From the NCBI GenBank assembly GCA_977862235.1, contig OZ374563.1:186001-250000 (forward strand): a stretch of 64,000 nt of DNA, read 5' to 3'. Position 1 is the stretch's first letter. Every line of letters starts with the position of its first letter. Origin of the DNA: Dudresnaya verticillata (lineage: Eukaryota). The position numbers and the translations under genes are program-made. Shown here one piece after another: positions 9,170-58,333 of this stretch. Under the pieces are notes generated by a model. That model was not told the DNA's origin. It saw only the letters and a list, made by a program, of their open reading frames with translations, and did not search any database.

Positions 9170-9487
9170 ACGGAGACTCCGGCGGCAACTGCAGCTGCGA
9201 CGCATGCGTCCCAATCCAACGGCGCGCCCGTCGTAGGGCGCCCCCAGTCTCCATGGGTGGCGGAGATAGCGGCGGCAACTGCAGCTGGGACGCATGCGTC
9301 CCAAGCAAACGGCACGCCCGTCGTGGGGCGCCCCCAGTCTCGACGGGTGGCGGAGACAGCGGCGGCAACTGCAGCTGGGACGCATGCGTCCCAAGCCAAC
9401 GGCGCGCCCGTCGTGGGGCGGCGCCAGTCGCGAGAGGTGGGGGAGGCAGCGGCGGCACCTGAAGCTGCGACGAATGCGTCCCAAGCC
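9170..9487 (+). repeat. 90-bp tandem repeat, about 3.5 copies (30-aa coding repeat)
   Basis: GGCGGCAACTGCAGCTGGGACGCATGCGTCCCAAG... recurs with period 90 (palindrome cores at 9199, 9289, 9379, 9469). Confidence 0.9.
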
Positions 9488-14956: not shown

Positions 14957-15615
14957 ACTTCGAAATTGCTAATGTTGTAGATTCAGAACAACAGCCCACA
15001 ACCGCAGTTCTTGGATGGGCACAAAGAAGTACACCTGTGAGCTCGAGCTCACAGATATCTCAGCTCTCGGTATTTATTTGCAGTTCTCGTCGCACTACCC
15101 ATGGAGGATGATTGGAATGCCTCGCAGACTCTGTAACGGTATGCCATTCGGGCAATTGTAATATTCTTATATCGAGAGGGGTGTACTGCATCCTCATTTG
15201 GATACAACCAATAAAATTATTTATTTGGGCCCAAGCTTCCCACATTTCTGCCAATCAATTACCGCCACTGATTGGGACGCGTGCGTCCTATAATACCAAT
15301 TTTTGTATGAGACTATATGAAGCACTGTACGACTGGTACCACCTTGTTCTGCTACAAGGAAGCGTCCCACGAATGGCGTACGCATGCATCCCGGTTTTAG
15401 CCCGGCGAAAGCTGTGATATTTTGATATTTTGATTCCTGAACATATCATTTGGTGCCGTAACAGCCTCTCGCGAGCCATAAATTCCCGCGAGACTGAAAC
15501 GAACCGAAACACCTAGAAGGTTTCAGCCAGATTGCCGCGTTATTCCCCGTAGTACCGTGTGGTGCGCACTTCTCACTCGTTGCCCCACACGCTTCTTCAC
15601 TTCTTGAGCACAGAA

Positions 15616-17081
15616 ATGGGCACTCAACTCGATAACGTGCAGAGAAGAGCATTTCAGTCCTTCCGCACTGGGCGATCGCTGGCCATCCTCGGCGGTGCCG
15701 GTAGCGGCAAGTCCTTTCTACTGCACGAAATTATTGATCACGCAACGAAAGCGGTTGGGGACTACCCGAACATTGCCGTATGCGCTTTCACGAACAGGGC
15801 GGCAAAAAGTTTGAACGGGAGAACCATTCACTCCCTCTTTGCTGCCCCAGTGAGTTGGCCTTTTCAAGTGGATAAGCTCCTCGAAGAAACTGCGAAGACT
15901 GCGGGCGCTGTTACTACACTTCGACAAATTCAAGTCCTCATCATCGATGAAATAACACACTTGACCGCAGGAATACTTGACAGCATAGATGGGGTTCTGA
16001 GGGAGCTTTCATCTTCCAGAAATTCTTCCCTCCCTTTCGGGGGACGTCAAGTAATTCTAGCAGGGGACCCGTTCCAACTCGAGGCGATCCCACAAAGGCA
16101 TGGAACATCAGAAGAGAATATGCAAGTGTTTCATGCTCGCTCCTGGTTCCTTAGCTTCGGGGGATTTGGAACGGGTGCTGTGGCGATTCTTTCGGGTAAC
16201 CACAGGCAGGCTGGTGATCAGGAGTACTTCGATCTTCTTGAGAGAGTGCGCTGCGGAACATTCAGCGATGAGGACGTCAACAAATTAACAGAACAAGTGT
16301 TGGGATATCTTCGCCTCCGTCACACTACACAAGACTTTGCTTGGAGAATAATGAAGTGGACACGATAAACGAAACATATCTGGCTAAGAATCGCAATCCT
16401 TCCTTCTATCATAGAGCTGAGGACAAATTTCACACTGCCCAGCATGGTGGAGTTCACTCCAACTGCATAAGGGTTCTGGATTCAATGGCCCGAAGGGTCA
16501 TCCACGTAAAAGTCGGGGCCATTGTTCTCACTACTATGAAAACGGGTGCGTTGCTTCCCGGCTCTCGGGGTACAATATGCGGAATTGTAACAAATGCTCA
16601 TGACACGAGTGCTATTTCGGCATTGAAGTTGAGAACTGATGACGACACAATTCACACAATGTCTCCTCGCCTGTTCTCAAGTCGAAACAGAAAAGCAGAA
16701 GTAATCGCTACGCGGAGGCAGTTCGCTATCGTCCCTGCTTATGCTACAACGATTCACAGAGCTCAAGGACTCACCCTCTCGAGAGTGGCTGTTTCATTCA
16801 AGGATATTAACAGATGGAAACCGTTTGGGATGGTATACGTGGCATTGTCAAGATGCACGTCTCTTCAAGGTGTGTGGGCATCAGGGTTAACTAGAGCACA
16901 CATTATTGTAAGCCCGCAAGCAAGGTACTGCTGCACAAGAATTTCGAAGCTGCGAAAATATTATCCTTCTCGAGTAATAGAGGACATGAGTACGTCTAAC
17001 ACTGAATCCTACATTACTGAAAAGAAGAGGGTCCGTGGAAGCGCTCACGCCGACTTTCCGGACGCTTCTGTGCCAAGGTGA
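15616..17081 (+). pseudogene. Pif1-like SF1B DNA helicase, frameshifted near 16.3 kb
   Basis: GGAGSGKS, GRTIHS, LIIDEIT, PFGGRQVILAGDPFQL and NHRQ in the first ORF; AYATTIHRAQGLTL and YVALSR in the second ORF. Confidence 0.85.
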
Positions 17082-17605
17082 CGTACGGTATAAGTGGAAT
17101 CTGTTCCTTTGGCGCGCTTAATGCACGTGCATAGTGGTAGGAAGGCACCAGCAGCAGATTATATGCACGTATAGAATACCTGTCCCACAGAAGTATATAA
17201 GAAATATAATTCCGCAAATATGCAGCAATTAATGTTTTAATCTAAGAAAAATAAATCTCATTTTTTCTGAGACGCACGCGTCTCTGACTGATAAAACTAT
17301 AATTTTCTTACTGAGACTCACGCGTCTCAGAGCACAAAAATAAAAAGTAATTTTTCTCAGACGCACGCGTCTCTGACTGACACCGTGACGCGGCGTGTAT
17401 ATGGTGCTATGTCCAGAACGTCATAATTGTATCCCATTGTGAAAGAGTGGGGCGCATGAGGTTTAAAGAGACGTGTGCGTCGCACTGTTTCCATCTTAAT
17501 GACAAATCAACCTTTATACTCATTATTTCGACTTCCTTTTCAAACCTACAGTTCATTCCGAACGAGTGAGGCGCATGCGTCCTAGGTACTCGCAACTATT
17601 GAAAA

Positions 17606-20378: not shown

Positions 20379-20914
20379 AGAATGAGAAATAACTCAAGCC
20401 ATGATGCTTCCCGCAGATGGACGCATCTGCGTGGCAGAGTCGGAGTCGGCCAAAAATAAGGCCTAAATTTTGCAGCATGCACGATTCTTGCGTCAACCCG
20501 CTGACCTGTCCCGATCAAAAGCTGATCGTTCGATACTGATCTGCAATCCCTCCGAGTCCATATTCGCCTTGGAAAAGGCCTCCTACAGTTAAACTATCCA
20601 TTGCACCAATCCCACGTTTGACTCCCGGGCTCGGTGTCGGCCTGCTCAGGCAGAGCCCCCGTAATCGACCGAGGCCCACATTGCAACCGAGCAGCAGCCT
20701 TCTTGCTGCCGCTTGCCGACAGCAAGCTTGAGGGCGTGTGTTTCATGTAGCTGTCACAGCATCCGTGCTAATGTATGTGCAATTTCATAGGCGGGCCCCC
20801 GCCGTATCACGCAACAGGCAGACCGTTGATGGCTGTCAGCCTGTGGGTTATGTAGTACAAAGTCAAGTTCAAGCTCTATGAAAATTTCAACCTTTGCTTC
20901 CAAAGTGGTGGATA
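20379..20914 (+). repeat. Left arm of a ~540-bp diverged inverted repeat
   Basis: Reverse complement of 22714-23264, e.g. GATGCTTCCCGCAGATGGACGCATCTGC, AAATAAGGCCTAAA and AAGCTCTATGAAAATTTCA. Confidence 0.9.
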
Positions 20915-22713: not shown

Positions 22714-23264
22714 TATACACAACTTTGAAAGCAGAAGGGTGAAATTTTCATAGAGCTTAAACTTGATTTTGCACAATACACAGGCCGACTGCCATCAGCT
22801 GTCTGCCGGTTGCGTGATGCGACGGGGGCCCACCGATGAAATTGCACATGCATTAGCACGAATGCTGTGACAGCTACATGAAACACACGCCTACAAGCTT
22901 TCTGTCGGCAAGCGGCAGCAAGAAGGCTGCTGTTCGGTTGCAATGTGGGCCTCGGTCGGTTACGGGGGCTCTGCCTGGGTAGGCCGACACCGAGCCTGGG
23001 AGTCAAGCGTGAGATTGGTACAAAATGGATAGTTTAACTGTAGGAGGCTTTTTCCAAGGCGACCAAAACTCCAACGACGGACTCGGAGGGATGGCAGATC
23101 AGTATCGAATGATCAACAGCCGATCGGGACAGCTCAGCGGGTTGACTGCCGCACCAATCGAGCATGCTGAAAATTTTAGGCCTTATTTGTGGTCGACTCG
23201 GACTTTGCCATGCAGATGCGTCCATATGCGGGAAGCATCAAGGCTTTGAGTCAACTCTCATTCT
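22714..23264 (-). repeat. Right arm of the ~540-bp diverged inverted repeat
   Basis: Reverse complement of 20379-20914. Confidence 0.9.
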
Positions 23265-36824: not shown

Positions 36825-37742
36825 CTACACAGTCGCAGCAAGAGCCGACTTGTACGAGTCAATGATCTCAAGGAAAGTTGGTTTCAGCGAGGCGCCACCA
36901 ACCAAAAACCCGTCAATGTTGGGCTTCTTCGCTAATTCTTCGCAGTTCTTCGGTGAGACCGAGCCACCATAAAGGATCCTCGTGGAATCAGCGACTGCAG
37001 TCGAAACGTTTTTCTCCAACCATGACCGCACGGCCTGGTGGACATCCTCTGCTTGGTCCGGGGTTGCGACCTTTCCTGTGCCGATAGCCCATACTGGCTC
37101 ATAAGCAATAACAATGTTGGACCAGTCAGAAATGGCGCCAGCCAAAGCGGCCAACTGGCGTTCGCAGACTGCGACGGTGTTACCCGCCTCGCGCTCTTCC
37201 AGGAGCTCACCGATGCAGTAGATAACGCTGAGACCACCATCGGACAGAGAGTAAGCGGCCTTGGTTGCTATGGTCTCATCCGATTCCTTCATGATTGGAT
37301 GGTGACGGCGTTCTGAATGGCCAAGAATGGTCCAGTTGCTACCGACGTCCTTAACCATCTTCGCGTCTAGCTCCCCGGTATAGGCGCCGCCGGCAGAAAT
37401 CCAGACATTCTGAGCGGCGGTGGCAAAGTCGGATCGGAGCTGGGCGCGGGTGGAGTCGAGGTAGATAGAGGGCGGGGCGACGACAACGTCGACGTTGTCC
37501 TGGTCCAGGGCTGGGGAGGCGTTGAAGGCGGAGACGAGTTCTGCGATAGCGGCCTTGTCCAGGTTGCACTTCCAGTTCCCGCCGACGAAAAACTTGCGGC
37601 GGCCTACGGCCATACGGACGCAGGCGAAAGACGGGGCCGGGGCGACTGGGGCACTCCTCGGGACGACGGAGCGTCCGCTCGCGCGGGACAGGCCCGAGGT
37701 GAGGGCAGAGGCGCCCGATGTGACAAAGGCGGGAGCTGGCAT
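36825..37742 (-). CDS. TPI: Triosephosphate isomerase, plastid-targeted
   Basis: FFVGGNWK, ILGHSERR, IAYEPVWAIGTG, YGGSV and GFLVGGASL; MPAPAFV transit peptide. Confidence 0.97.
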   Translation of the reverse strand: MPAPAFVTSGASALTSGLSRASGRSVVPRSAPVAPAPSFACVRMAVGRRKFFVGGNWKCNLDKAAIAELVSAFNASPALDQDNVDVVVAPPSIYLDSTRAQLRSDFATAAQNVWISAGGAYTGELDAKMVKDVGSNWTILGHSERRHHPIMKESDETIATKAAYSLSDGGLSVIYCIGELLEEREAGNTVAVCERQLAALAGAISDWSNIVIAYEPVWAIGTGKVATPDQAEDVHQAVRSWLEKNVSTAVADSTRILYGGSVSPKNCEELAKKPNIDGFLVGGASLKPTFLEIIDSYKSALAATV

Positions 37743-38265
37743 TGCGGGTCGGGGGGGTCTGTGAGGGGTTGGGGTGGGGAAGTGTGCGGTCGTTGGACGG
37801 GAGAGAGGAGGCGGCGCCAAGCACGCGGCGGATGAAGGAGAATGCGGCACGACTTGAACGGATGAGAGGATCGGAACGAGAGGCAGGGATGACATGTGGA
37901 CCGAAGCGAGATCGTTACATGAAAATCTACGATGTGGCGACTTGGCGGGCGCGCATTGGACGCGATGCCAGCCCAAGAACGCCGCTCAGTGGCCCTTTCC
38001 GCCTCTTGACTGGTCGCATCGTCCGAGCGCAGATATTTCGCGCGGTTGGACGGCCGCCTAATATCTTCAGATCCAATTCTCCAATTTGCATAAGATTGGA
38101 TCAGCAATCCATTCCGTTCGGCCTGTCCCGCATTGCTGGAGCCACGCAGCACCTCAAACGCTGATGCGAGCTGTGAGCTGCGTCAGGCGTGCATCACCAG
38201 TTCCAAGCTCCTGCCGCTTTGTGCTCCCACTCCTTTGATCCTCGTTCCTCGAGCCCCCGACCACC

Positions 38266-40104
38266 ATGCACGCTCCGGTTGCCTTTGCGGGCGCACCGCT
38301 CCCGCCTACGGCCAGATCCAAACGCCATCTTCCCCACCGCCACCCGCCACACACAAGGCCGACCCGCCAAACACCCACCTGCGCCTCAACCGTTACCGTG
38401 CTGGACTACGGCGCTGGCAATGTCCGCTCCCTCGAGAACGCCGTGCGTCTCTTCGGCCACGACATCAAGTGGGCCCGCTCCGCCGCCGACATTGTCGCCG
38501 CCGACAAGCTCATCTTCCCGGGCGTTGGGTCCTTCGGCGCCGCCATGGACAACCTCCACTCCCGCGGCTTCGTCGACGCCCTCACCAAGTATGTCCAGGA
38601 CGACCGCCCGTTCCTCGGCATCTGCCTTGGTCTGCACACCCTCTTCGAAGCCTCTGAAGAGTCCCCTGGCGTGCCCGGTCTAGCCGTCTTCCCTGGCACA
38701 GTCCGCAAGTTCCGCTTCGACCCCGCGTTGGGCCTTGCAGTCCCGCATATCGGATGGAACTGCGTCACTGCCCGCCGCGATTCAGTCCTTCTCATGCCCG
38801 ACCCGGACGAGCCGGTTGCTGATTACCTCGACCGATATTATTTTGTCCACTCTTATCGCCTGGGCATGGATGTTGCCGATCCCATCCCGGACGCCGTCCT
38901 AGGTACCACTACTCATGGGGAAGAGTATCTTTCCGTCCTGCAGCGTGGTCGTGTATGCGCCACCCAGTTCCACCCGGAGAAATCCGGCCCGGCCGGCCTT
39001 CGCCTCATTCGCAACTTTCTCGCCTCAGACGATGTCTCCGTCGCCCCGAAGTGGTCTGCCACGCAGAAGCCTGCGCACTCTTCCATGCAAGCTTCCGGTA
39101 ACGGCAAGCCATCAAGAGGTTTGGCAAAGCGCGTCGTCGCCTGTCTAGATGTCCGAGAGAACGATCAAGGCGACCTCGTTGTCACAAAGGGTGACCAATA
39201 CGACGTGCGAGAAAAGACAGGTGAAAATGAGGTGCGCAACCTCGGCAAGCCGGTTGAGCTGGCCAAGCGATACTTCCGCGACGGTGCAGATGAAGTCTGC
39301 TTTTTGAACATTACTAGCTTCAGAGGGGAGCCAGTGGGATCTGCACCCATGATTGAGGTGCTAGAGCGAACGTCCCGAGAAGTCTTTGTGCCATTATGCA
39401 TTGGGGGCGGTATCCGTGACTACACAGACCGTACAGGTAGAGAGTACTCCGCATTGGATGTGGCCGCCATGTACTTCAGAGCCGGTGCTGATAAGGTGTC
39501 ATTGGGAAGCGATGCCGTGTACGCTGCAGAGAAGTTGATGGCCTCTGAAAGCGCGAAGGGCGATGGGACGTCGTCCATGGAACGGATTTCGCATGTATAT
39601 GGAGCTCAAGCAGTTGTTGTTTCAGTTGACCCCCGTCGAGTGTATGTTGACAAGCATGAAGATACGGACCACGCAACAGTAACTCACGATGACGGACGAA
39701 TATGCTGGTACCAATGCACGGTGAAAGGAGGCCGGGAGGGGCGGGACGTAGATGTGGTACAGTTAGTTCAGGCTGCAGAAGCACTTGGTGCAGGCGAGAT
39801 CCTGCTCAACTCCATGGACAGAGACGGCCAGAACGATGGGTACGATACGAAGCTTGTTGACATGGTGCGAAGTGCCGTTTCGATTCCTGTCATCGCTTCA
39901 TCAGGTGCGGGCAAAGTGGAACATTTCACAGAATGCTTTGACAAAACAGATGTTGAGGCAGCTCTCGCTGCTGGGATATTCCATCGACAGGAGGTGTCGA
40001 TTGGAGAGGTCAAGGAACACATGTCAGACCATGGGACGCCAGTGCGACTCGCAGGCCCTTTAGAGGATGTGCTGAAGGTCGCGGCGGGTTCTGTAGAGAA
40101 GTAG
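38266..40104 (+). CDS. HIS7: Bifunctional imidazole glycerol phosphate synthase HisHF, plastid-targeted
   Basis: LDYGAGN, FPGVG, GICLG and QFHPEKS (HisH) fused to ACLDVR..VVTKGDQY and ALAAGIFHR (HisF). Confidence 0.96.
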   Translation: MHAPVAFAGAPLPPTARSKRHLPHRHPPHTRPTRQTPTCASTVTVLDYGAGNVRSLENAVRLFGHDIKWARSAADIVAADKLIFPGVGSFGAAMDNLHSRGFVDALTKYVQDDRPFLGICLGLHTLFEASEESPGVPGLAVFPGTVRKFRFDPALGLAVPHIGWNCVTARRDSVLLMPDPDEPVADYLDRYYFVHSYRLGMDVADPIPDAVLGTTTHGEEYLSVLQRGRVCATQFHPEKSGPAGLRLIRNFLASDDVSVAPKWSATQKPAHSSMQASGNGKPSRGLAKRVVACLDVRENDQGDLVVTKGDQYDVREKTGENEVRNLGKPVELAKRYFRDGADEVCFLNITSFRGEPVGSAPMIEVLERTSREVFVPLCIGGGIRDYTDRTGREYSALDVAAMYFRAGADKVSLGSDAVYAAEKLMASESAKGDGTSSMERISHVYGAQAVVVSVDPRRVYVDKHEDTDHATVTHDDGRICWYQCTVKGGREGRDVDVVQLVQAAEALGAGEILLNSMDRDGQNDGYDTKLVDMVRSAVSIPVIASSGAGKVEHFTECFDKTDVEAALAAGIFHRQEVSIGEVKEHMSDHGTPVRLAGPLEDVLKVAAGSVEK

Positions 40105-40792
40105 GACCTGTTAAGCTGCTATCCAGCAGAATGCCGAAAGGGAGCAGGTAATAAGTTGTCTGAGAATATTTAGCCCTTGAAGATATACGCGTACTACCTC
40201 TGATGGACTTCGTTTCCGGATTTGTACAGACCAGCAGATCTTTTCTGTTTCCATTAAAACCCCTTTCAATTTGTACCCTTCCAAGGAATGCGAAGTTCAG
40301 TTGAGGTAGCGAACGCCTACATCAAACTGTTGGGAAGAGTTCCATCCCAACTGCATTGCATGCACAGCATAGTACACAGTACACCGAGAATATAATTGTT
40401 GCCGATTTACCAACATGTTATTGTCCTAACAACCTTCTAGGACACCGTCATGGCATGTCGAAGATGTTTCCGGAGTCCATTCGATCTGACTGGGTAAAGC
40501 GTCACGAGTCATCCCACAATGCTAGGGACAAAGCGGAATGGTTCCCTTTGTTGATCCCACATCGACCGCAGCGACTTTATTCTGACTCTATTGAGATCGT
40601 TTAGTTTCTTTCTGAAAGGGGTTCCGATGGGCTCGAACGTACGCGATTAGGTGCTGTTTGCGGCTACGGCGCTGATGTCGTTCGGTGGCATGCGGGAGAG
40701 TTTATTTTCGACCGCGCCGTTGACACCGATGACGACCTGTTTAAATATTATTACTTTCCACCTCTTGTACAACACGTGTACACAGCGGTCTG

Positions 40793-40900
40793 GTCACATT
40801 AGCTCAGTCGGCAGAGCGTAGGTCTCATAATGACGGAAAGCGTTAGCAATCCTAAGGTCGCGAGTTCAAGTCTCATCACTCGGAACCCTCGCATGTGGCT
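40793..40900 (+). tRNA. tRNA-Met(CAT), elongator-type, with an intron at 37/38 (40830-40848) and a second insertion in the T-loop (about 40871-40886)
   Basis: Acceptor stem GTCACAT/ATGTGGC, D-stem GCTC/GAGC, anticodon arm TAGGT-CTCATA|A-TCCTA with the Met-typical U31-U39 pair, T-stem GCGAG/CTCGC, and a downstream T-run. Confidence 0.85.
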
Positions 40901-40908
40901 GCACGCGA

Positions 40909-40917
40909 TTTTTTTTT
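40909..40917 (+). terminator. Pol III poly-T terminator of the tRNA
   Basis: T9 run 8 nt after the tRNA 3' end. Confidence 0.7.
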
Positions 40918-41101: not shown

Positions 41102-42741
41102 TCAACATCCGTTACGTTTTTTTGTATCGGAACTCTTGAAGAGGCAACTGAATAGATCAGATATTTTCTCAGATGCATACTCTGCCAGTACATACGTCGA
41201 CGCAAGAGGGCCGGCCGACGTAGGCATTACTCGAAACGATGATGCGTCGATCACTCGTAGCTTTTCGACGCCACGAACTTTTAGATTTCTTCGTAAGACC
41301 GGCCCTACTGCACAGCCCCCGACGAAATGCAATCCATGCTCGGTTGGGTTCCGCAACAACTCTTCGCTTATATCGCTGGGAGTAGGGGGTCCCACAATTG
41401 TGGCCTTCAACGAGGCAGGCAGATTTCGATTGATCTTCACCGCCTGCTGCAAGCACTTCTTGAGCCGTTGCACATCTTTCTGCATCCCGAGTAGGTTTAG
41501 CTGCACGTCAGGAGGCGAGAACGGATTTGCGCCCTTAACGCGAATGGAGCCAAATGAGGCAGGATTCGTGATACATGCCGATAGCAGTGTCAGGCTCCCA
41601 AGCCCATCACCGGCTAATGCATTGACAACAGATATGTAGCTTTGCTTCTTAACCAAAGCTAATACTAATGTTGATGGAATTCCTAGAACACTGCTTTTGC
41701 CGTTTTCCCATCTTCTCCTTTGCTTCTTGGAGTTCACGAGCTCCGCATTATTAGCTGGTTCGACAGGGACGCCCGAATAGATTGAAACCACCTGATTCAG
41801 TGGTCGAGCCTGTGTCCGTTCACCAACAGGCAGTTCGACTTTGTCCTCAATTCCAACACCACGGAGAACATCCTTGCTGTCTATACCGGACAACTGCAGC
41901 AGCTTCCGAGATTCGAAGGGACCTGCTGCAATGATGGTTTCCCTGCTTGTCATTAAGACCATCTAGCTCTTCATGCTCTTGCTTTCCGTAGAAACATATC
42001 CTACTTCCAGAGCCTGCCGCGGTTGATCATCGCTCAGAATAACCTTAGTCACTGTTACGTCTTGTATAACGCAACGGTTATTCTTACACTTGCCCATCAT
42101 GGCGGGTGTTATGTAACCAGTACAGGCGTTAATCCTTCTCCCGGACGGTGTGATTGCAACGGCATTGTACCATGCAGCGAGTCGGACCATTTGTGTAAAC
42201 GGTCTAAACTGATTCATGAACCCGCTCGTCATGGCTGCAGATAGGTAAGCATCTCCATAGACATGGCGAACGGCCTGGGGTGGTTGAGCGAATGGAAGTT
42301 GTCGGTACGCCCAACGAAAGTATTTCTTCACGCGTTAGAAGAAGAAAGACCCAGAATGCGCCATTTATCCACAGATGAACCTAATGGAACAGACCACTGC
42401 ATGCCGTTCAGAGAACTAGACCCGCCCAGAGTATTTCCAGTGATGATCAGGCGTGAAGCTCCAAACAGACCAGGGTTCGGTAACGATTGATAGGATTCTG
42501 ATACCTTCGGATTCGGCCACGAGCCCAGCATTTGTCTCGGTGAACGGATAAGAAACTCAGAGTCGCGGTCACGAGGAAGGCCGCATTCCAACACAGTGAT
42601 ATTTACATGGGGAAGAGCTTCGGACAAGCGAGCGGCAATCGTGCACCCAGTGGTGCCGCCACCCACGATGACGAAGTCGGGATTCGTCGCAAAAGCGGAA
42701 GTGACGATCTGAGTGACGAGGAGCAGGGTCTGAGTCCTCAT
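41102..42741 (-). pseudogene. GMC (glucose-methanol-choline) oxidoreductase, secreted type, disrupted
   Basis: DFVIVGGGTTGCTIAARLSE, GNTLGGSSSLNGM, HFVGGC and LKVRGVEKLRVIDAS; frameshift near 42330 and in-frame TAG at 41963-41965. Confidence 0.85.
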
Positions 42742-45429
42742 GATACAAGGATACGGCCAGCAAAACAGAAGACTGCGCAACTAAAATCGTCACTTCCTGA
42801 ACACGACCTGCAACCTGAAGGGGAAGAAATCGCGTTGCGCTTGCTATCAAGCGTTGCTTTTCTGAGTAACAGTTGTATATCACTGCTGGTCCGCACCTTA
42901 AGAACCGAGCGGGATGTGAGCCTATCGTTATATGAGCAGTCACATGATGTCATCACATAGTATGTATCAGTCAGTCACATAATGTTATCACATACCACAG
43001 TATCACATGATGCGACTGCTCATATGACAATACTAACTCTGGGCCACCTGGTACACATGCAGCATTGTCTGGTCCTGTACTAAGACTCGTAGGTTTGCTA
43101 GACAAAGTTTGATATGTCAGAATGGTGTCCTACATTAGCAGTAATGTATCAGACTGTACTGGCCCTACATACAACTTTTGAAGTGGCGAGGGCTTCCGTC
43201 TGGCCAACCTTCTAACGAATAGAAAGCCACGAGCGCGAAATCCTACGAGCAAGTTAGCCAACCTAAAGCCGAGCACCGGGAGAAAATGCTGTCTGGAAAA
43301 GGCCTTGATCTTAAGATTCCAGGAGTATCCTGAGGACGGTCGGGTGCCTCGGCCGTGATTCAAACCCGCGACCACTGACTTCCGTAGCCGCGGCAACCAC
43401 TAGGCCAGGGTGAGATTTAAGTCGTCCCAGGATATGTCTGGTCCGGCCCCAAGACTCCTTGGGTGGGAAGCCATTCTCAGTTCAATGAAAGAATGCAGCC
43501 TTCCTCTCGCAATGTTGCGGCATACTGTGCACGGGTTCACGAGGTAGCAGGTCTCTCTGTCTAGGAGATTTACAGTCCTTCTACCCTCCCGGAACGCTTG
43601 TTTTCCCGGCTCCTGCTGACCCAGATCACCCAGTGTCATCGCAAGCCTTGCTACGGAAAATCCTTGTTATAAGACGGCATCATATTCCTTCATCGCATCG
43701 GGGAATATTTCGAGGAAGCACTGGATGTCAGGAGCACTCTTCCAAAACACCGAAAAAGTTGTTCAACTTGCTAAAGAAATGCTCTATCGTCGCCTGGGAC
43801 ACCTTCTGATTTCTCTGGAGCTTCAGAGAGCGCGGCTAACGTAACATCGGCTGATGAAGGGATGGATGCCTTCACAGTCACCAAGTAGCCCATTTCGCAA
43901 CAGAGATGCATTGAGCTTCTCTCCAGTTTACATGTTTTGTAGCAATCCGTTGTTCTCGTTTGCGGCTTCCCCAGTGTTTCAATAGTCGTCGCGGGGGCTA
44001 CTAATGCAAACTCTGCCTCGCATGTTTGCAGGGTGCCCTGGAGGGCGCAATGCCAACATCAACTTCAGGCACCCAACTCATATTCTTACTATCGAGGAAT
44101 GTGGCCCTCATGCGTGAGCTGTGTTGTGGGCCGCGGCGGATGACTTTTGGATTCTCTATTCCCATGTCACACATTCTTGAAGGCCTCATATTTTTGGCTG
44201 ATTTCAAAGGAACTAGATCGGTGGACGGAAGGCGTCTTCTTTTTCCGCGGATATTCCTTTATCGAAGCCTTCTCATATCAAGGATTGTCTGTATCCACAA
44301 CCGTATTGCCGTTGGCCGAGGGTCGAACGAACGGCGGCCTGGGCGCCGGACCCCGGCGATTGACCCTCTGGAGACCCTTGGGCCCCTCCTGCCGGACCGT
44401 ACTAGTTGCCAACAATCGTACTACGGTATTTCTAGAAGTATTCGCAATGCGCATGTTAGTGGCAGCGTGGCAAAGGTGCGCCATATGGCGGGACGCATGT
44501 CAAGTTGTGAACGGCTCAGAAGATGGGGTTGTGCCTGAACTTCGACAAGAATATGACCAGGTGCGCAAAACATATGGGGCGCACATGTAGCAGTCTATCT
44601 GTGTCCAGCCCCATCATTAGGCAGGAACGTATCCGGTACAGCTCTGTGCCACAAGTTTTCAACGTTCTTGTCGACGGATAAGGGAGGGGTGACAAGTAGC
44701 GCTGATTTAGTTTAGAGTTTCTCGGCGGCAGTCTGCGTAGGGCACGCCATGGCGCAACGTCGGTAACATTTTTTTGAGCATGCAAGCCTCCCATTAACAA
44801 TGATGCCCGCTATCGTAAACCACCTGTAGATACCAACCGCGACTATCTTCTTCACCACTTTCTAAACGAAATGACTGCACTTTTGCCAAACACCGATCAA
44901 GAATGTGTTATTCTTGCCGTCGACTGACGCCCAGCGAGGGTAGAGTGTTCGGCTGCAGGGGCCCCCGGAACCTCGTGACAATTGCTCCTTCATGGCCACG
45001 TCCCTCTTAATATATTAGTATATTAGCTCCCTCGGATGTGGAAATAGTCACGAGCATTTGGGCATAGACCCGTCAGAGGCAAAAGGTCCGGCCGGGAAGA
45101 ATGACTTCGTTGGTTCTCGCCTTCAGCCTTCTACATTGTACCTTCAGAAGGTAGTACGTAGACATCAGACCTTGCGATAACATTATATCGTTGTACTTGT
45201 GCTGAGAAGCCGAGCAGACAGACAGCGCTGCAAGAGAAAAATTCACGGCATTATTTTTGTCCCGGAATAATGACGTCTCAGCCACAGTCGAGCTCTTTGC
45301 ATAGTCATACTGTATCTCTCAACCTCATTCACTCAGCCGAGAGGCCTTAGCCGACAAGTCTGGCTTCGCATCACACTTGTTGTCATCGAGAGCGAGGGTC
45401 GTTGAACTCTTGAACGAAGCTTTGCAAAA

Positions 45430-50295: not shown

Positions 50296-51975
50296 TTACG
50301 TAGGCTTCTCTTTTTCTTTTCGTTGGTCTGGGTCATCTTGACTGGACAGGGCTTCTTCGCAGCCAAGATCTACATCCTGTGCAAACTCCTCTTTTCTCCT
50401 GTCCGGAAGGCGTTCAAACTGGGACGCGTCCATTGCGTCACGACTGTTATCACCCCTTTCAGTCGCGGGTGGGTGAAGCCCGTGGATAAATACGTTTTCG
50501 GGCAGAGTATCGCGATCTCGAATATCCTCGAATTCCTCCAAAAACCGATCCGCCTCATCACCGTCCTCGGCCTCGTAGCGATTAGGCATCTTTCCAGAGA
50601 GACAGCGCTCCGCCTCAGTGCAGTTCGACTCGTCCAGATCCAAGGTCAACCGCACAGCATCTTCCTCTGCGACGTCTTCCTCCTTTGATCCTGTCGCGAG
50701 GACAGCCTCCTCCTCCACCGACAGCGATGCGCGGACTTGGTCGCCCTCAGCCAGGAGGTCACGCTTCTGCTTGGCTGCAACCGGACGATCCGGCTCCGCA
50801 ATGGTATGCTTCTGTAGGTCCATCACCTTGACAGCGGGCAGTGCCGCAAGGCTAACCGCGGGCGAGGGCGGCGGTGGCGGCGGCGGGGACGGGAACAGGG
50901 CTGTGCCGCGTTCCCTTGCGCCCATCTGCGTGTACAGTGCAGGACGCGGCTTCCTCGGGCGGCGCGCAGCGTCGGACGATGCAGTACCAGCGGCGGCGTG
51001 TGCAGGAGGTGCGGCAAGCATGGCGACAACGTCGGTCTCGGAATACAGGGTGAAAGGGGCGTCGAAGGTGAGACAGGCGACGGTGGCGCGCTGATTGATC
51101 TTCAAGTCCGGGACTGCCCCGGCTCCGGTGCTGCGCGCAAGTACAAACGGAAACGGAAGGCTATGGCGTTGCAACTGGGCAGCGCGCTCCGCTTCGGCGG
51201 CATCGGCGCTTTCATCGGCGTTCTCCCGCTGGTCGGGGCGCGGCAACGGTGGCAAGTTGGTGCGGCGTCTACGGCGGGCTATGAAGAGTGCCTGATAGGC
51301 GGCGAGAGTCTCGCGAAGACGGGCAGCAAGGGTCTCTTTGGTAGCGATGCGGTGCCTAGCATCGGCGACGAGAGCGCGCGGGTGGGAAACGGGGGTGTGC
51401 GGCTGGTGCGGAAGGCGGCCGTGGTGCGGAGGAGTTGGAGGGACGGGGGAGGCGCGGGCAAGGTCGGAGACGCCAAGCCAGCGGAGGGACTTGCCGTGGC
51501 GCGAGATGCAGCGGGCGGCCTCCATAACCTTGAGGGCGTCGTAGACGCGGCGGCGGGTGTTGCGCTGGACGGCGGCGACGGAGCGGGCAGGGTCGGCTGC
51601 GCAGAGGTGGTGGGCGGCAGCGGCGGCAACCTCATCGGCCAGGGCGGACGAGGGCCGCTCGCGCGCGCGCGACAAGGCAGTGACGAGGGCAATGGCGGTC
51701 CAGCGCAGGTTCTTTGTGGGCGGGGCGGCGGTTGGGGAGCGGGTGCGCGGGCGCTTGGACAGCGGCGGCGGCGGGCGGGCGACGGGCGGGCGACGCTTCT
51801 TGGAGGCGGGCTGAGGGGAGGTGGCCGGTGGCTTGGCGGCGGCGGCGGCGGCGGCGGCGGCGGTCCGGGCTGAGGGGTGCGGGGTTGCGGAGGACGGGGT
51901 TTGCGGCGGCGACGGCGTGCGGGACGGGGGAGGGGCGGTGACGCGGCGCGTGTGGGTTGGGACCGGGCGCGACAT
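50296..51975 (-). CDS. E2F/DP family, divergent DP-like transcription factor
   Basis: KNLR..ADEV..NTRRRVYDALKVMEAARCISR..LRWLG winged helix, followed by an LPFPFVL dimerisation-like region. Confidence 0.8.
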   Translation of the reverse strand: MSRPVPTHTRRVTAPPPSRTPSPPQTPSSATPHPSARTAAAAAAAAAKPPATSPQPASKKRRPPVARPPPPLSKRPRTRSPTAAPPTKNLRWTAIALVTALSRARERPSSALADEVAAAAAHHLCAADPARSVAAVQRNTRRRVYDALKVMEAARCISRHGKSLRWLGVSDLARASPVPPTPPHHGRLPHQPHTPVSHPRALVADARHRIATKETLAARLRETLAAYQALFIARRRRRTNLPPLPRPDQRENADESADAAEAERAAQLQRHSLPFPFVLARSTGAGAVPDLKINQRATVACLTFDAPFTLYSETDVVAMLAAPPAHAAAGTASSDAARRPRKPRPALYTQMGARERGTALFPSPPPPPPPSPAVSLAALPAVKVMDLQKHTIAEPDRPVAAKQKRDLLAEGDQVRASLSVEEEAVLATGSKEEDVAEEDAVRLTLDLDESNCTEAERCLSGKMPNRYEAEDGDEADRFLEEFEDIRDRDTLPENVFIHGLHPPATERGDNSRDAMDASQFERLPDRRKEEFAQDVDLGCEEALSSQDDPDQRKEKEKPT

Positions 51976-52557
51976 TGTTGGGGGGGGGGGGTGGGTCGGG
52001 GCGGGGGTTGAGCGCGTGATGAGAGCGGGGGGCGGAGCGGAGCGGCGCAACAAGAAGGGATGTGAGAAATGGCGCGGTACCGTTGCGGCGGTTAGGAAGC
52101 GCGGGTGTTGCGGTGCGGCGGTTTGGCGGGTGTTTTGGCGTTGCGCTTTGGCGCGCTTAGCGCAACACGCGGCGCGGCGCGAGCGCGTGCGGCCGGGAAG
52201 GCGATGCGTGCTGCCGAGCTCGTGCGCGCGGATCAGCGCCGGTCTCACGGATCACAGCCGCGATCGCGATCCCGACCGCGATCGCGATCCACCCGCTGTT
52301 TTGGCGCGCTGTAAGACCGGCGCCACTGTAAGCCCCCGAAGCGCAACCGCCAAAAAGACACCAACACCGACGGCCACCGACACCGTCCCGCCCGCTCCCC
52401 TCTCCGTCCCCGTCCCCCTCCCGCCCGCCGCTCACCGGGAAGCGATACCACGCGCCGCCACCGTGTGCCCATCGCCGCCCACCGCCGCCTGTCCCGCCGC
52501 CGCTCCACATCCGCTCCCGCGCTCCCGCGCTACCCCGCTCCGCCCCACCCGCGTGCC

Positions 52558-56631: not shown

Positions 56632-56953
56632 CGTGACGGGGGGGTACCAAGCAGCGCGATGAGGGCGCACCGCGGGACAACGGAGGGCAGGGAGGCGGGG
56701 GAGTATCACGTAGTACCTCCGAGGGAAGACGACAGGGCTCATACGCATTGCATGCAGCCAATGGGCGCAGCTCAATTTTGGCGCCAAGCGCGAGGAGAAA
56801 CCGAAACGCAGCGCATGTACCCCCCGGCGAACGGCCGTCCGCTCCCGGAATCTGCGCAACGACGTATACGTCCAGCCGCAAACATCGCACCTTTCCCTTC
56901 GCCACGCCCTCCACCCCGTCCTGCTTTCCCTCCACCCGCGAGCCGTGCGCACC

Positions 56954-58333
56954 ATGTCCACCTCAACCTCCCCACCCCCACAGCTGTCCCGCCGCGACCT
57001 CTCCAAGACCGTCTCCGCGACGAAGAACCTGCGCGCCATCTCCATGTCGCTGGTGCGCAAGGTGCAAACGCACCCAGGCATGTCCTCCACCGACGTCGCC
57101 AACGCCCTCGCGCGAGAGGCCGTCCGTGACGTGCTGCGCGTCGTCAACCCGGTCTCGCCGACCGACCTTCACGCCATCGAGAAGAACATCCGCCGCCGCT
57201 TGTACGACTCGCTCAAGGTCCTCATCTCCGTCGGTGCCATCACCCGCAACCCCTCCACCAAGCACCTGCTTTGGCGTGGCATCTCGCACCTCCTCCCGCC
57301 ATCCTACCAACCCCATCCGCGCGCGCGCAACGCAGCCGCCGTCCGTGTCGCGCTCGAGGCCGTCCGCGTGCGGCTCGGAAAGAAGACAGACTTGGCTGCC
57401 GGCCTGCGCAACCAAACCGCCGCAATGACAATGCTGTGTCGAAGGAACGACACCTGCCCCGCCCCGCGCGCGCTCCGCATTCACCTTCCGTTTGTGGTCA
57501 TTCGCACCCCGGCCAACACTGACATAACACTGGACGCCACTCCGGACGCGCAGAGGATTGCCTTTGAGTTTAGCGGGTACTATGAAATTGTGAATGACTC
57601 ATCCATTCTAGACCGTCTATTTGTCGTCAAAGACCGGCCGGCGTCGCGCGGAAGGCCCGTTCCGGTGGCCGCGCCAAGACCACGGCCTCCCGCCATTGCT
57701 CCACCGCCACCGCTGGCAGAAGACCCCTCTCCAGGCTACGACTTTAGCTCACCAAAGCGTCGGCGTATCGCGTCGCGGTCGCCTTTTGCAAAGTACACTT
57801 CTGGTGCAAAGCCGCCACCCTCTCCAGCTGCCCCACATCGGCGCAAACGTATTACGCTGCCGACGCCACCGTCATCTTCGCCGGAAAACGCGGGATTGGA
57901 GTACAATTCTCCACTCAAGGCTAGTCTACGTGCGTTGGCGGAGCCTTCTGTGGACTCGCCGGTGCGGCACAACACCAGGGTGGCGAGGAGCTTATTCCGA
58001 AGCGTAACGGGGTCACCGGGAGCGGCGGGTTCATCTATGCCGGTACGGAAACGTCGTTCCGAGTATGGTTTGATTGGATCAGAAAGTTCAAAGAGCGGTC
58101 GTGTACAGGACAATGACGCAGAAGGGCTTAGCCCGCAGGTGACGAGGGGGTTTGGGAAGAGATTGTATGGGCCAGGGTCTTCATCTTCTTTGAGAGATGG
58201 TAGGCAAAAGGGGTCTCCGGATGTGGCGAAGGGGGTTGTAGACTTGGGTGGTGGAGTATATTCGGGGAAGGCGGGAGATGGCGAAGCGCTGGCAAACGAG
58301 TTTTTGCTGTCGCCAGGGGTTTCGCCAATGTAG
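56954..58333 (+). CDS. E2F/DP family, DP-like transcription factor
   Basis: KNLRAIS..VANAL..KNIRRRLYDSLKVLISVGAI..LLWRG, followed by IHLPFVVIRT..FEFSGYYEIVND. Confidence 0.85.
   Translation: MSTSTSPPPQLSRRDLSKTVSATKNLRAISMSLVRKVQTHPGMSSTDVANALAREAVRDVLRVVNPVSPTDLHAIEKNIRRRLYDSLKVLISVGAITRNPSTKHLLWRGISHLLPPSYQPHPRARNAAAVRVALEAVRVRLGKKTDLAAGLRNQTAAMTMLCRRNDTCPAPRALRIHLPFVVIRTPANTDITLDATPDAQRIAFEFSGYYEIVNDSSILDRLFVVKDRPASRGRPVPVAAPRPRPPAIAPPPPLAEDPSPGYDFSSPKRRRIASRSPFAKYTSGAKPPPSPAAPHRRKRITLPTPPSSSPENAGLEYNSPLKASLRALAEPSVDSPVRHNTRVARSLFRSVTGSPGAAGSSMPVRKRRSEYGLIGSESSKSGRVQDNDAEGLSPQVTRGFGKRLYGPGSSSSLRDGRQKGSPDVAKGVVDLGGGVYSGKAGDGEALANEFLLSPGVSPM

What the first reader, a model, noticed from the sequence alone, without database searches (positions are those of the whole stretch)
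40793..40900. tRNA-Met gene with two introns, one at a non-canonical T-loop position (59/60)
Seen: the cloverleaf closes only if 19 nt after position 37 (40830-40848) and 16 nt in the T-loop (TCTCATCACTCGGAAC, 40871-40886) are removed, which restores the T-loop TTCAAGC. The insertion's CGGA can pair with T54-C56 (one mismatch at 57), leaving a 3-nt ACC bulge, i.e. a relaxed bulge-helix-loop junction. Known: ectopic and multiple BHB-type tRNA introns are characteristic of archaea and Cyanidioschyzon merolae. Inference: such processing may extend to this macroalga-like genome, and standard scans would miss the gene. The junction also repeats GTCTCAT from the anticodon arm, which suggests how the insertion arose. 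The discriminator would be U, which is atypical for Met.
Basis: partly seen in the sequence, partly recalled or inferred. Interest (0 to 1): 0.75.

Follow-up and report, generated by a model that had tools for sequence, protein, structure and literature searches.

The report
Red seaweed two-intron methionine tRNA
A red seaweed's methionine tRNA gene is interrupted by two short insertions, one at the usual anticodon position and one in the T-loop, and both are likely cut out by the tRNA-splicing enzyme; this layout is already published for the same tRNA of Irish moss (Chondrus crispus), so it is real but not new.

Summary
Window 40793-40900 (+) is a eukaryotic elongator tRNA-Met gene whose stems close only after removing 19 nt at 37/38 and 16 nt from the T-loop. 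ARAGORN and Rfam thresholds miss it. Neighbouring proteins place the host among florideophyte red algae, nearest named Eucheuma. One contig from a public DNA run carries both insertions unchanged but a different 3' flank. Open points: the cut site (59/60 fits splice geometry best; C. crispus is given as 58/59), a weak junction helix (3 of 4 pairs, P about 0.06), U73 (0 of 37 comparators) and no RNA data. The insertion's first bases keep the B box intact and resemble positions 60-64 of C. merolae eMet, so a T-arm duplication is as good an origin as the anticodon-arm repeat. The scan noted this gene class before in C. merolae. Verdict: new member of a known kind, low interest.

The parts
40740..40753 (+). 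AT-rich TATA-like element at -53 to -40, likely the upstream Pol III promoter element (inferred)
   Evidence: Sequence. C. merolae tRNA genes show TATA-like elements at varied distances upstream (PMC3728597 text and supplement).
40793..40829 (+). Exon 1: positions 1-37 (acceptor 5' strand, D arm with A box at 40800-40811, anticodon CAT at 40826-40828)
40830..40848 (+). Insertion 1, 19 nt, canonical 37/38 intron; C32-G pair and 3-nt 3' bulge, central helix 3 of 4
   Evidence: 19 of 37 comparator eMet-type genes carry an intron here
40849..40870 (+). Exon 2: positions 38-59 (anticodon stem 3' strand, variable loop, T stem 5' strand, T-loop to G59)
40864..40872 (+). B-box consensus (GWTCRANNC, motif recalled) intact in the unspliced gene, because the first two bases of insertion 2 stand in for Y60 and C61
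   Evidence: an insertion starting Y-C arises in 22% of shuffles, so this is not significant on its own
40871..40886 (+). Insertion 2, 16 nt, T-loop intron, best register 59/60 (alternatives 40868-40883 to 40870-40885, or 40872-40887 to 40875-40890)
   Evidence: no differences listed across it in contig 2 of run X1
40887..40900 (+). Exon 3: positions 60-73 (T stem 3' strand, acceptor 3' strand, discriminator U73); no encoded CCA
40909..40917 (+). Run of 9 T, likely the Pol III terminator
   Evidence: contig 2 of run X1 matches to the end of this run and then diverges

Best explanation
This is a nuclear elongator tRNA-Met gene of a florideophyte red alga interrupted by a 19-nt and a 16-nt insertion, and both are likely introns removed by the alga's tRNA splicing endonuclease to give a normal 73-nt tRNA. 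Shown: the anatomy, the stems, the A and B boxes, the T run, the host group, and a near-identical second occurrence. Inferred steps: Pol III transcribes from the AT-rich element to the T run. The T-loop intron sits after the sixth base of a 7-nt loop on a 5-bp stem, the same geometry as 37/38, so the T arm can present a relaxed helix-bulge-helix (HBh') site: native T stem, 3-nt bulge holding the 3' cut, U54-C56 paired with the intron. It is probably cut first, as in C. merolae, after which the L shape forms and the 37/38 intron is removed. The register 59/60 is my pick at about 0.6 within this explanation.
For: All stems close and the invariant bases are kept; the cloverleaf energy equals the minimum free energy for each of three spliced forms tried. 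Exon 3 fits eMet comparators (C61 37 of 37, U62 33, C65 32, G71 35, C72 35). Among nine registers only 59/60 keeps the native T stem (5 of 5) under a 3-nt bulge with helix 3 of 4; U54-C56 all pair in 1.2% of shuffles. G59 occurs in 12 of 37 comparators against C59 in 2 of 37 and in C. merolae eMet. A 248-nt contig in public DNA run X1 matches 40795-40917 with 1 difference and no gap, none listed within either insertion, then has another 3' flank; it is the only long near-identical piece in 18 kb. C. crispus tRNA-eMet has two introns, and T-loop splicing was verified there for tRNA-Trp (pre-tRNA-Mete drawn under a BHB legend). Host: dynamin 78% to Eucheuma denticulatum, in a 14-row clade with SH-aLRT 99 on a quick tree. 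Non-canonical introns are cut before 37/38 in C. merolae.
Against: U73: 0 of 37 distinct comparators have it, C. merolae eMet has A73, and A73 is a listed identity element of eukaryotic tRNA-Met (PMC9976931 Table 1). The junction is weak: 3 or more of 4 helix pairs arise in 6% of shuffles, no outer helix forms, the 59/60 helix has pairing probability 0.14 in the precursor ensemble against about 0.5 for a competing helix, and the lowest-energy folds bury the 5' cut site. The published C. crispus position is 58/59, which fits poorly here (helix 1 of 4). The second occurrence is one contig of depth 2.2 and could be a recent duplicate in the same species, which would not show selection. PMC4090602 notes that D- or T-arm insertions in eukaryotes are mostly pseudogene features.
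Confidence: 0.8

Rival explanations
1. The gene is spliced, but the T-loop intron is cut one to three bases further upstream (56/57, 57/58 or 58/59, which all give the same product with C59-C60), matching the 58/59 position published for C. crispus. This rival concerns the register only and is part of the 0.8 above.
For: Cognat et al. state that all C. crispus T-loop introns lie at 58/59. The equivalent register 56/57 has a perfect 4 of 4 central helix; that helix, extended to 5 bp, is in the minimum-energy fold of the precursor; 56/57 is a known archaeal site.
Against: At 58/59 the helix is 1 of 4. At 56/57 the flanking exon helix is 2 of 5 and the T stem must open. C59 is in 2 of 37 comparators, and this product scores 37.8 bits against 40.2 for 59/60 on a profile of positions 38-73. 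I could not see the C. crispus sequences or figures, so their numbering could not be compared.
Confidence: 0.27
2. It is a pseudogene or poorly charged copy: a canonical intron-bearing eMet gene hit by a local duplication in the T arm and an A73-to-U change, while other copies supply tRNA-Met.
For: U73 (0 of 37). The insertion begins with bases matching positions 60-64 of C. merolae eMet and is flanked by a 3-nt direct repeat (registers 60/61 to 63/64 are equivalent), as a duplication would leave. The junction is weak. Run X1 holds another eMet-like gene with a shorter 37/38 intron whose contig ends at 40870, so its T-loop cannot be read.
Against: No stem damage anywhere, with promoter boxes and terminator intact. 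A two-intron layout is published for the orthologous tRNA in the same algal class. MetRS reads mainly the anticodon (PMC9976931 section 13; data mostly bacterial).
Confidence: 0.16
3. Only the 37/38 intron is removed and the 16 nt stay in the mature RNA as an enlarged T-loop, or the first bases of the insertion serve as the T-stem 3' strand.
For: The Rfam tRNA model aligns the start of the insertion as positions 60-65, and the T stem can extend into the insertion.
Against: That alignment pairs 4 of 5 with a C-A mismatch and leaves the acceptor stem unclosed (model positions 8-63 only). A T-arm intron blocks Psi55 formation by Pus4 in C. merolae (PMC9602550), and the homologous introns are spliced in C. 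crispus.
Confidence: 0.04

Closest known systems
Chondrus crispus nuclear tRNA genes with D-loop (20/21) or T-loop (58/59) introns, including two-intron tRNA-Tyr and tRNA-eMet (Cognat et al., PlantRNA 2.0, bioRxiv 10.1101/2021.12.21.473619; PMC13578239 Appendix Fig. S4)
   Same: Same algal class, same isotype, two introns, missed or called pseudogene by standard tools. The text says tRNA-Tyr and tRNA-eMet carry a second intron in the D or T loop and that Tyr has the D-loop one; that eMet has the T-loop one is my reading of that sentence, as the figure was not visible.
   Different: Geometry here favours 59/60 rather than 58/59, and U73 is unusual. The host could not be shown to be, or not to be, C. 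crispus itself. Splicing of eMet was not among the three tRNAs tested in that paper.
Ectopic and multiple BHB-type introns of Cyanidioschyzon merolae nuclear tRNA genes (Soma et al. 2013, PMC3728597; Soma 2014, PMC3978253)
   Same: Multiple introns, four in the T-loop, relaxed HBh' or no-H motifs, upstream TATA-like element and T run; 59/60 is a known junction of permuted genes. Its eMet has the same anticodon arm and variable loop as this gene.
   Different: C. merolae eMet has its second intron in the D loop and an uninterrupted T-loop with A73. There, A and B boxes are often broken; here both are intact in the unspliced gene.
Non-canonical introns of crenarchaeal tRNA genes (sites include 56/57 and 59/60; PMC4090602) and of the Guillardia theta nucleomorph
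   Same: Same sites and relaxed HBh' junction class; nucleomorph eMet also has several introns.
   Different: This is a eukaryotic nuclear gene with eMet-type U31-U39; no sequence kinship with archaeal introns was tested.

Membership tests
Eukaryotic cytosolic elongator tRNA-Met gene | Cloverleaf with invariant bases and CAU anticodon after intron removal | tested here: met
   ARAGORN calls tRNA-Met on in-script spliced forms (it does not tell registers apart)
Eukaryotic cytosolic elongator tRNA-Met gene | Elongator rather than initiator traits: G1-C72, U54, U31-U39 (traits recalled; counts from comparators) | tested here: met
   U54 37 of 37 and U31-U39 37 of 37 (both partly fixed by the search pattern and parser), C72 35 of 37
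Eukaryotic cytosolic elongator tRNA-Met gene | Discriminator A73 (identity element, not a family-defining structural base) | tested here: not met
   U at 40900; A73 in 37 of 37 comparators; listed in Table 1 of PMC9976931
Eukaryotic cytosolic elongator tRNA-Met gene | Pol III signals: A box, B box, downstream T run, no encoded CCA | tested here: met
Eukaryotic cytosolic elongator tRNA-Met gene | Expressed and charged with methionine | not testable with these tools
   No RNA holder listed
Endonuclease-spliced tRNA intron at a non-canonical site (red-algal type) | Removal restores a 7-nt T-loop and a full T stem | tested here: met
Endonuclease-spliced tRNA intron at a non-canonical site (red-algal type) | Host in a lineage with verified ectopic splicing | tested here: met
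   Florideophyte placement; verified in C. crispus
Endonuclease-spliced tRNA intron at a non-canonical site (red-algal type) | Relaxed HBh' junction: 4-bp central helix, 3-nt bulge, flanking exon helix | tested here: inconclusive
   At 59/60: bulge and exon helix (5 of 5) present, central helix 3 of 4, P about 0.06. The class also admits no-H motifs.
Endonuclease-spliced tRNA intron at a non-canonical site (red-algal type) | Position 58/59 as published for C. crispus | tested here: inconclusive
   A 16-nt deletion at 58/59 restores a 7-nt loop but has no junction helix; published sequences not seen
Endonuclease-spliced tRNA intron at a non-canonical site (red-algal type) | Spliced product observed in RNA | not testable with these tools
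   No RNA holder listed
Strict archaeal hBHBh' intron | Two 3-nt bulges, a 4-bp helix and two flanking helices | tested here: not met
   Outer intron helix 0 of 3 and central helix 3 of 4 at 59/60

The most novel reading that the evidence does not exclude
Florideophyte T-loop introns really sit at 59/60, where the T arm copies the geometry of the anticodon arm. This one arose by duplication of the 3' strand of the T stem, which left the B box intact in the unspliced gene. Red seaweeds could then gain T-loop introns without losing TFIIIC-type promoters or needing an archaeal-type enzyme, and this copy would be a working tRNA-Met with U73.
Probability: 0.2. Interest if true: 0.45.

Novelty: new member of a known kind. 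Interest (0 to 1): 0.2.

Why it matters
Practically, such genes are dropped by standard annotation, so red seaweed tRNA sets need intron-aware searches; this is already known from C. crispus. What this gene adds is a clean test case: its candidate cut sites give different mature T-loops (G59 or C59), so one sequencing read would settle the register, and it asks whether a eukaryotic tRNA-Met tolerates U73.

Tried and rejected
Whole genome: none held, so other eMet copies and endonuclease or TFIIIC genes could not be sought. Expression: no RNA holder listed; not evidence either way. 98 of 120 parsed, 72 lacked encoded CCA, 37 were distinct; 22 did not parse (cut off, long introns, atypical). None of the 128 loci matched a T-loop-insertion pattern, and in L029 and L045 the T arm was not reached in the 95 nt printed. 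These served only as comparators. The prokaryote-genome scan gave 6 matches, all repeats on one contig; the 3 inspected were an uninterrupted tRNA-Met. The viral scan gave 2 uninterrupted genes. Contig 3 of run X1 looks like a bacterial tRNA tandem by its loose ends and was set aside. ARAGORN at lowered thresholds gave 192 and 429 calls and was useless. My intron-aware scan is not significant against its null. Folding z-scores of the precursor and its two arms were only -1.6 to -1.7. Host species: no row named C. crispus and no row of 90% identity or more among 120, 120 and 67 listed hits, and the window's TPI as I delimited it is not in the collection; this neither shows nor excludes C. crispus. 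The Plant Journal version of PlantRNA 2.0 is not held. Supplements of PMC13437025 hold no C. crispus sequences that I found. A search for non-canonical introns with Gracilaria found 0 papers; a TFIIIC and Chondrus search found 2 papers and no statement on TFIIIC in florideophytes in the passages read. No earlier scan note matched by sequence or place.

Full report
Observation. The stretch 40793-40900 (+) lies between an imidazole glycerol phosphate synthase gene ending at 40104 and a GMC oxidoreductase frame ending at 41102. It reads as a tRNA with anticodon CAT, 19 extra bases after position 37 and 16 extra bases in the T-loop. ARAGORN found 0 genes in the window, with or without its intron option, and Rfam found nothing at gathering score. 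With permissive filters Rfam gives a partial tRNA match of 26.2 bits over model positions 8-63. The acceptor pairs 7 of 7, the D stem 4 of 4 and the T stem 5 of 5, the last only with 40888-40892. An A box, a B box, an upstream AT-rich element and a run of 9 T are present.

Host. Three neighbouring proteins have red algae as best named relatives: HisHF 69% to Gracilariopsis chorda, dynamin 78% to Eucheuma denticulatum and 74% to G. chorda, and TPI 73% to Agarophyton chilense. A quick 54-row dynamin tree (SH-aLRT only; the careful search did not finish; rows were the top 45 hits, less P0169, plus P0171 and 8 further picked rows of the 120 listed) puts the window in a 14-row clade with Eucheuma (99) inside a clade with Gracilariales. 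The host is a florideophyte, probably near Gigartinales. No listed hit is named Chondrus crispus and none reaches 90%, so I cannot say whether the host is C. crispus or a relative.

Identity of the tRNA. Against these, exon 3 fits well (C61 37 of 37, U62 33, C65 32, G71 35, C72 35), and 19 of 37 have a 37/38 intron. Positions 39-43 and 54-58 were constrained by my parser and carry no weight. The exception is the discriminator: A73 in 37 of 37, U here. A73 is listed as an identity element for eukaryotic tRNA-Met (PMC9976931, Table 1), though the anticodon dominates in the studies described. This is the main point against function.

Where the T-loop intron is cut. Terminal redundancy allows three 7-nt loops: cuts at 56/57 to 58/59 give C59-C60, 59/60 gives G59-C60, and 60/61 to 63/64 give G59-U60. 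Under the usual bulge-helix rule, 59/60 alone keeps the native T stem as flanking helix (5 of 5) with a 3-nt bulge and a central helix of 3 of 4. This is the same geometry as 37/38, where the first intron also has 3 of 4. At 58/59 the helix is 1 of 4; at 56/57 it is 4 of 4 but the flanking helix is 2 of 5. The evidence is modest: at least 3 of 4 pairs arise in 6% of shuffles and the three pairs at 54-56 in 1.2%; the 59/60 helix has probability 0.14 in the precursor ensemble; a competing helix with a 2-nt bulge is slightly more stable; the lowest folds pair the 5' cut site. G59 is commoner than C59 among comparators (12 against 2 of 37) and is the base in C. merolae eMet. I put 59/60 at about 0.6.

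Second occurrence. One public DNA run was listed, with a word share of 0.05. Laid on the window, it gave a 248-nt contig of depth 2.2 that matches 40795-40917 with one difference and no gap, then runs on with another flank. The difference is not listed even at a 1% share; all listed rows lie more than 30 bases from a piece's end, so I infer it lies near an end and both insertions are identical. Whether U73 is shared cannot be told. In 18 kb laid at 88% likeness, 3 records fitted: this one, short pieces of a diverged TPI gene, and short pieces of what looks like a bacterial tRNA tandem. The contig is a paralogue or a close relative's orthologue; at this depth it is a single weak witness. A second contig (depth 11.4) is a more distant eMet-like gene with a shorter 37/38 intron, and it ends at 40870.

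What is known. Cognat et al. (bioRxiv 10.1101/2021.12.21.473619; whole text read, figures and supplements not seen) found C. crispus tRNA genes with introns at 20/21 or 58/59, state that tRNA-Tyr and tRNA-eMet have a canonical plus a second D- or T-loop intron, and verified splicing for Cys, Trp and Tyr. Since Tyr has the D-loop intron, I read eMet as the T-loop case. PMC13578239 (passages; first part of supplement 1) repeats this and lists pre-tRNA-Mete in a figure on BHB motifs whose drawing I could not read. Soma et al. (PMC3728597; parts 1-3 of 6, legends and part 1 of 2 of the supplement) describe ectopic and multiple introns in C. merolae, with non-canonical introns removed before 37/38. 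PMC3978253 and PMC4090602 (passages) give 59/60 and 56/57 as known sites. PMC9602550 (passages) shows that a T-arm intron blocks Pus4. PMC13437025 (passages and supplement search) and PMC12530127 (one passage search) added nothing.

Mechanism. Shown: anatomy, signals, host group, a second occurrence. Inferred: Pol III transcription, cleavage of the T-loop intron at a relaxed HBh' site by the algal endonuclease, refolding, removal of the 37/38 intron, end trimming and CCA addition, in an order borrowed from C. merolae. Two side observations. First, the insertion starts with Y-C, so the B-box consensus is intact in the unspliced gene, unlike many C. merolae genes; by itself this has a 22% chance. 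Second, the first five bases of the insertion equal positions 60-64 of C. merolae eMet (compared by eye), and the insertion has a 3-nt direct repeat at its ends. Both origins are speculation.

Verdict. Real feature, likely a functional two-intron elongator tRNA-Met (0.8), pseudogene 0.16, retained insertion 0.04. It is a new member of a known kind, and possibly the published gene itself. Earlier notes of this scan record the same class in C. merolae and in giant viruses; I did not test them. Interest 0.2.

Noticed in passing
window 43345-43416 (-): Degenerate tRNA-like element with A-box-like and B-box-like words but no cloverleaf fold; single copy in the window; possibly a tRNA-derived SINE head or pseudogene.
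   Followed up: partly
window 20379-20914 and 22714-23264: Inverted repeat of about 550 bp at 85% identity flanking about 1.8 kb, as for a DNA transposon.
   Followed up: no
window 15553-17081 (+): PIF1-like helicase in two overlapping frames, likely a broken Helitron-type gene; a hairpin with short repeats follows at 17239-17380.
   Followed up: no
window 9171-9487: Tandem repeat of about 90-bp units at 85-89% identity inside long overlapping frames.
   Followed up: no
window 42924-43031: Long AT-rich hairpin, weakly matched by a microRNA model far below its threshold; possibly a miniature inverted-repeat element.
   Followed up: no
window 36825-40104: TPI and HisHF genes lie head to head, each with an N-terminal extension that looks like a plastid transit peptide.
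   Followed up: no
window 50296-52251 (-) and 56714-58333 (+): An E2F/DP-domain frame and a DP transcription factor frame lie within about 5 kb of each other.
   Followed up: no
L121-L126 (contig CBDDFR010000002.1): A contig filed under a bacterial MAG carries a 3.7-kb unit repeated six times with eukaryote-type tRNA genes (Val AAC, Met without CCA); probably a mis-binned eukaryotic tRNA array.
   Followed up: partly
L029 and L045: tRNA-Met 5' halves followed by at least 95 nt without a T arm; possibly long introns or fragments.
   Followed up: no
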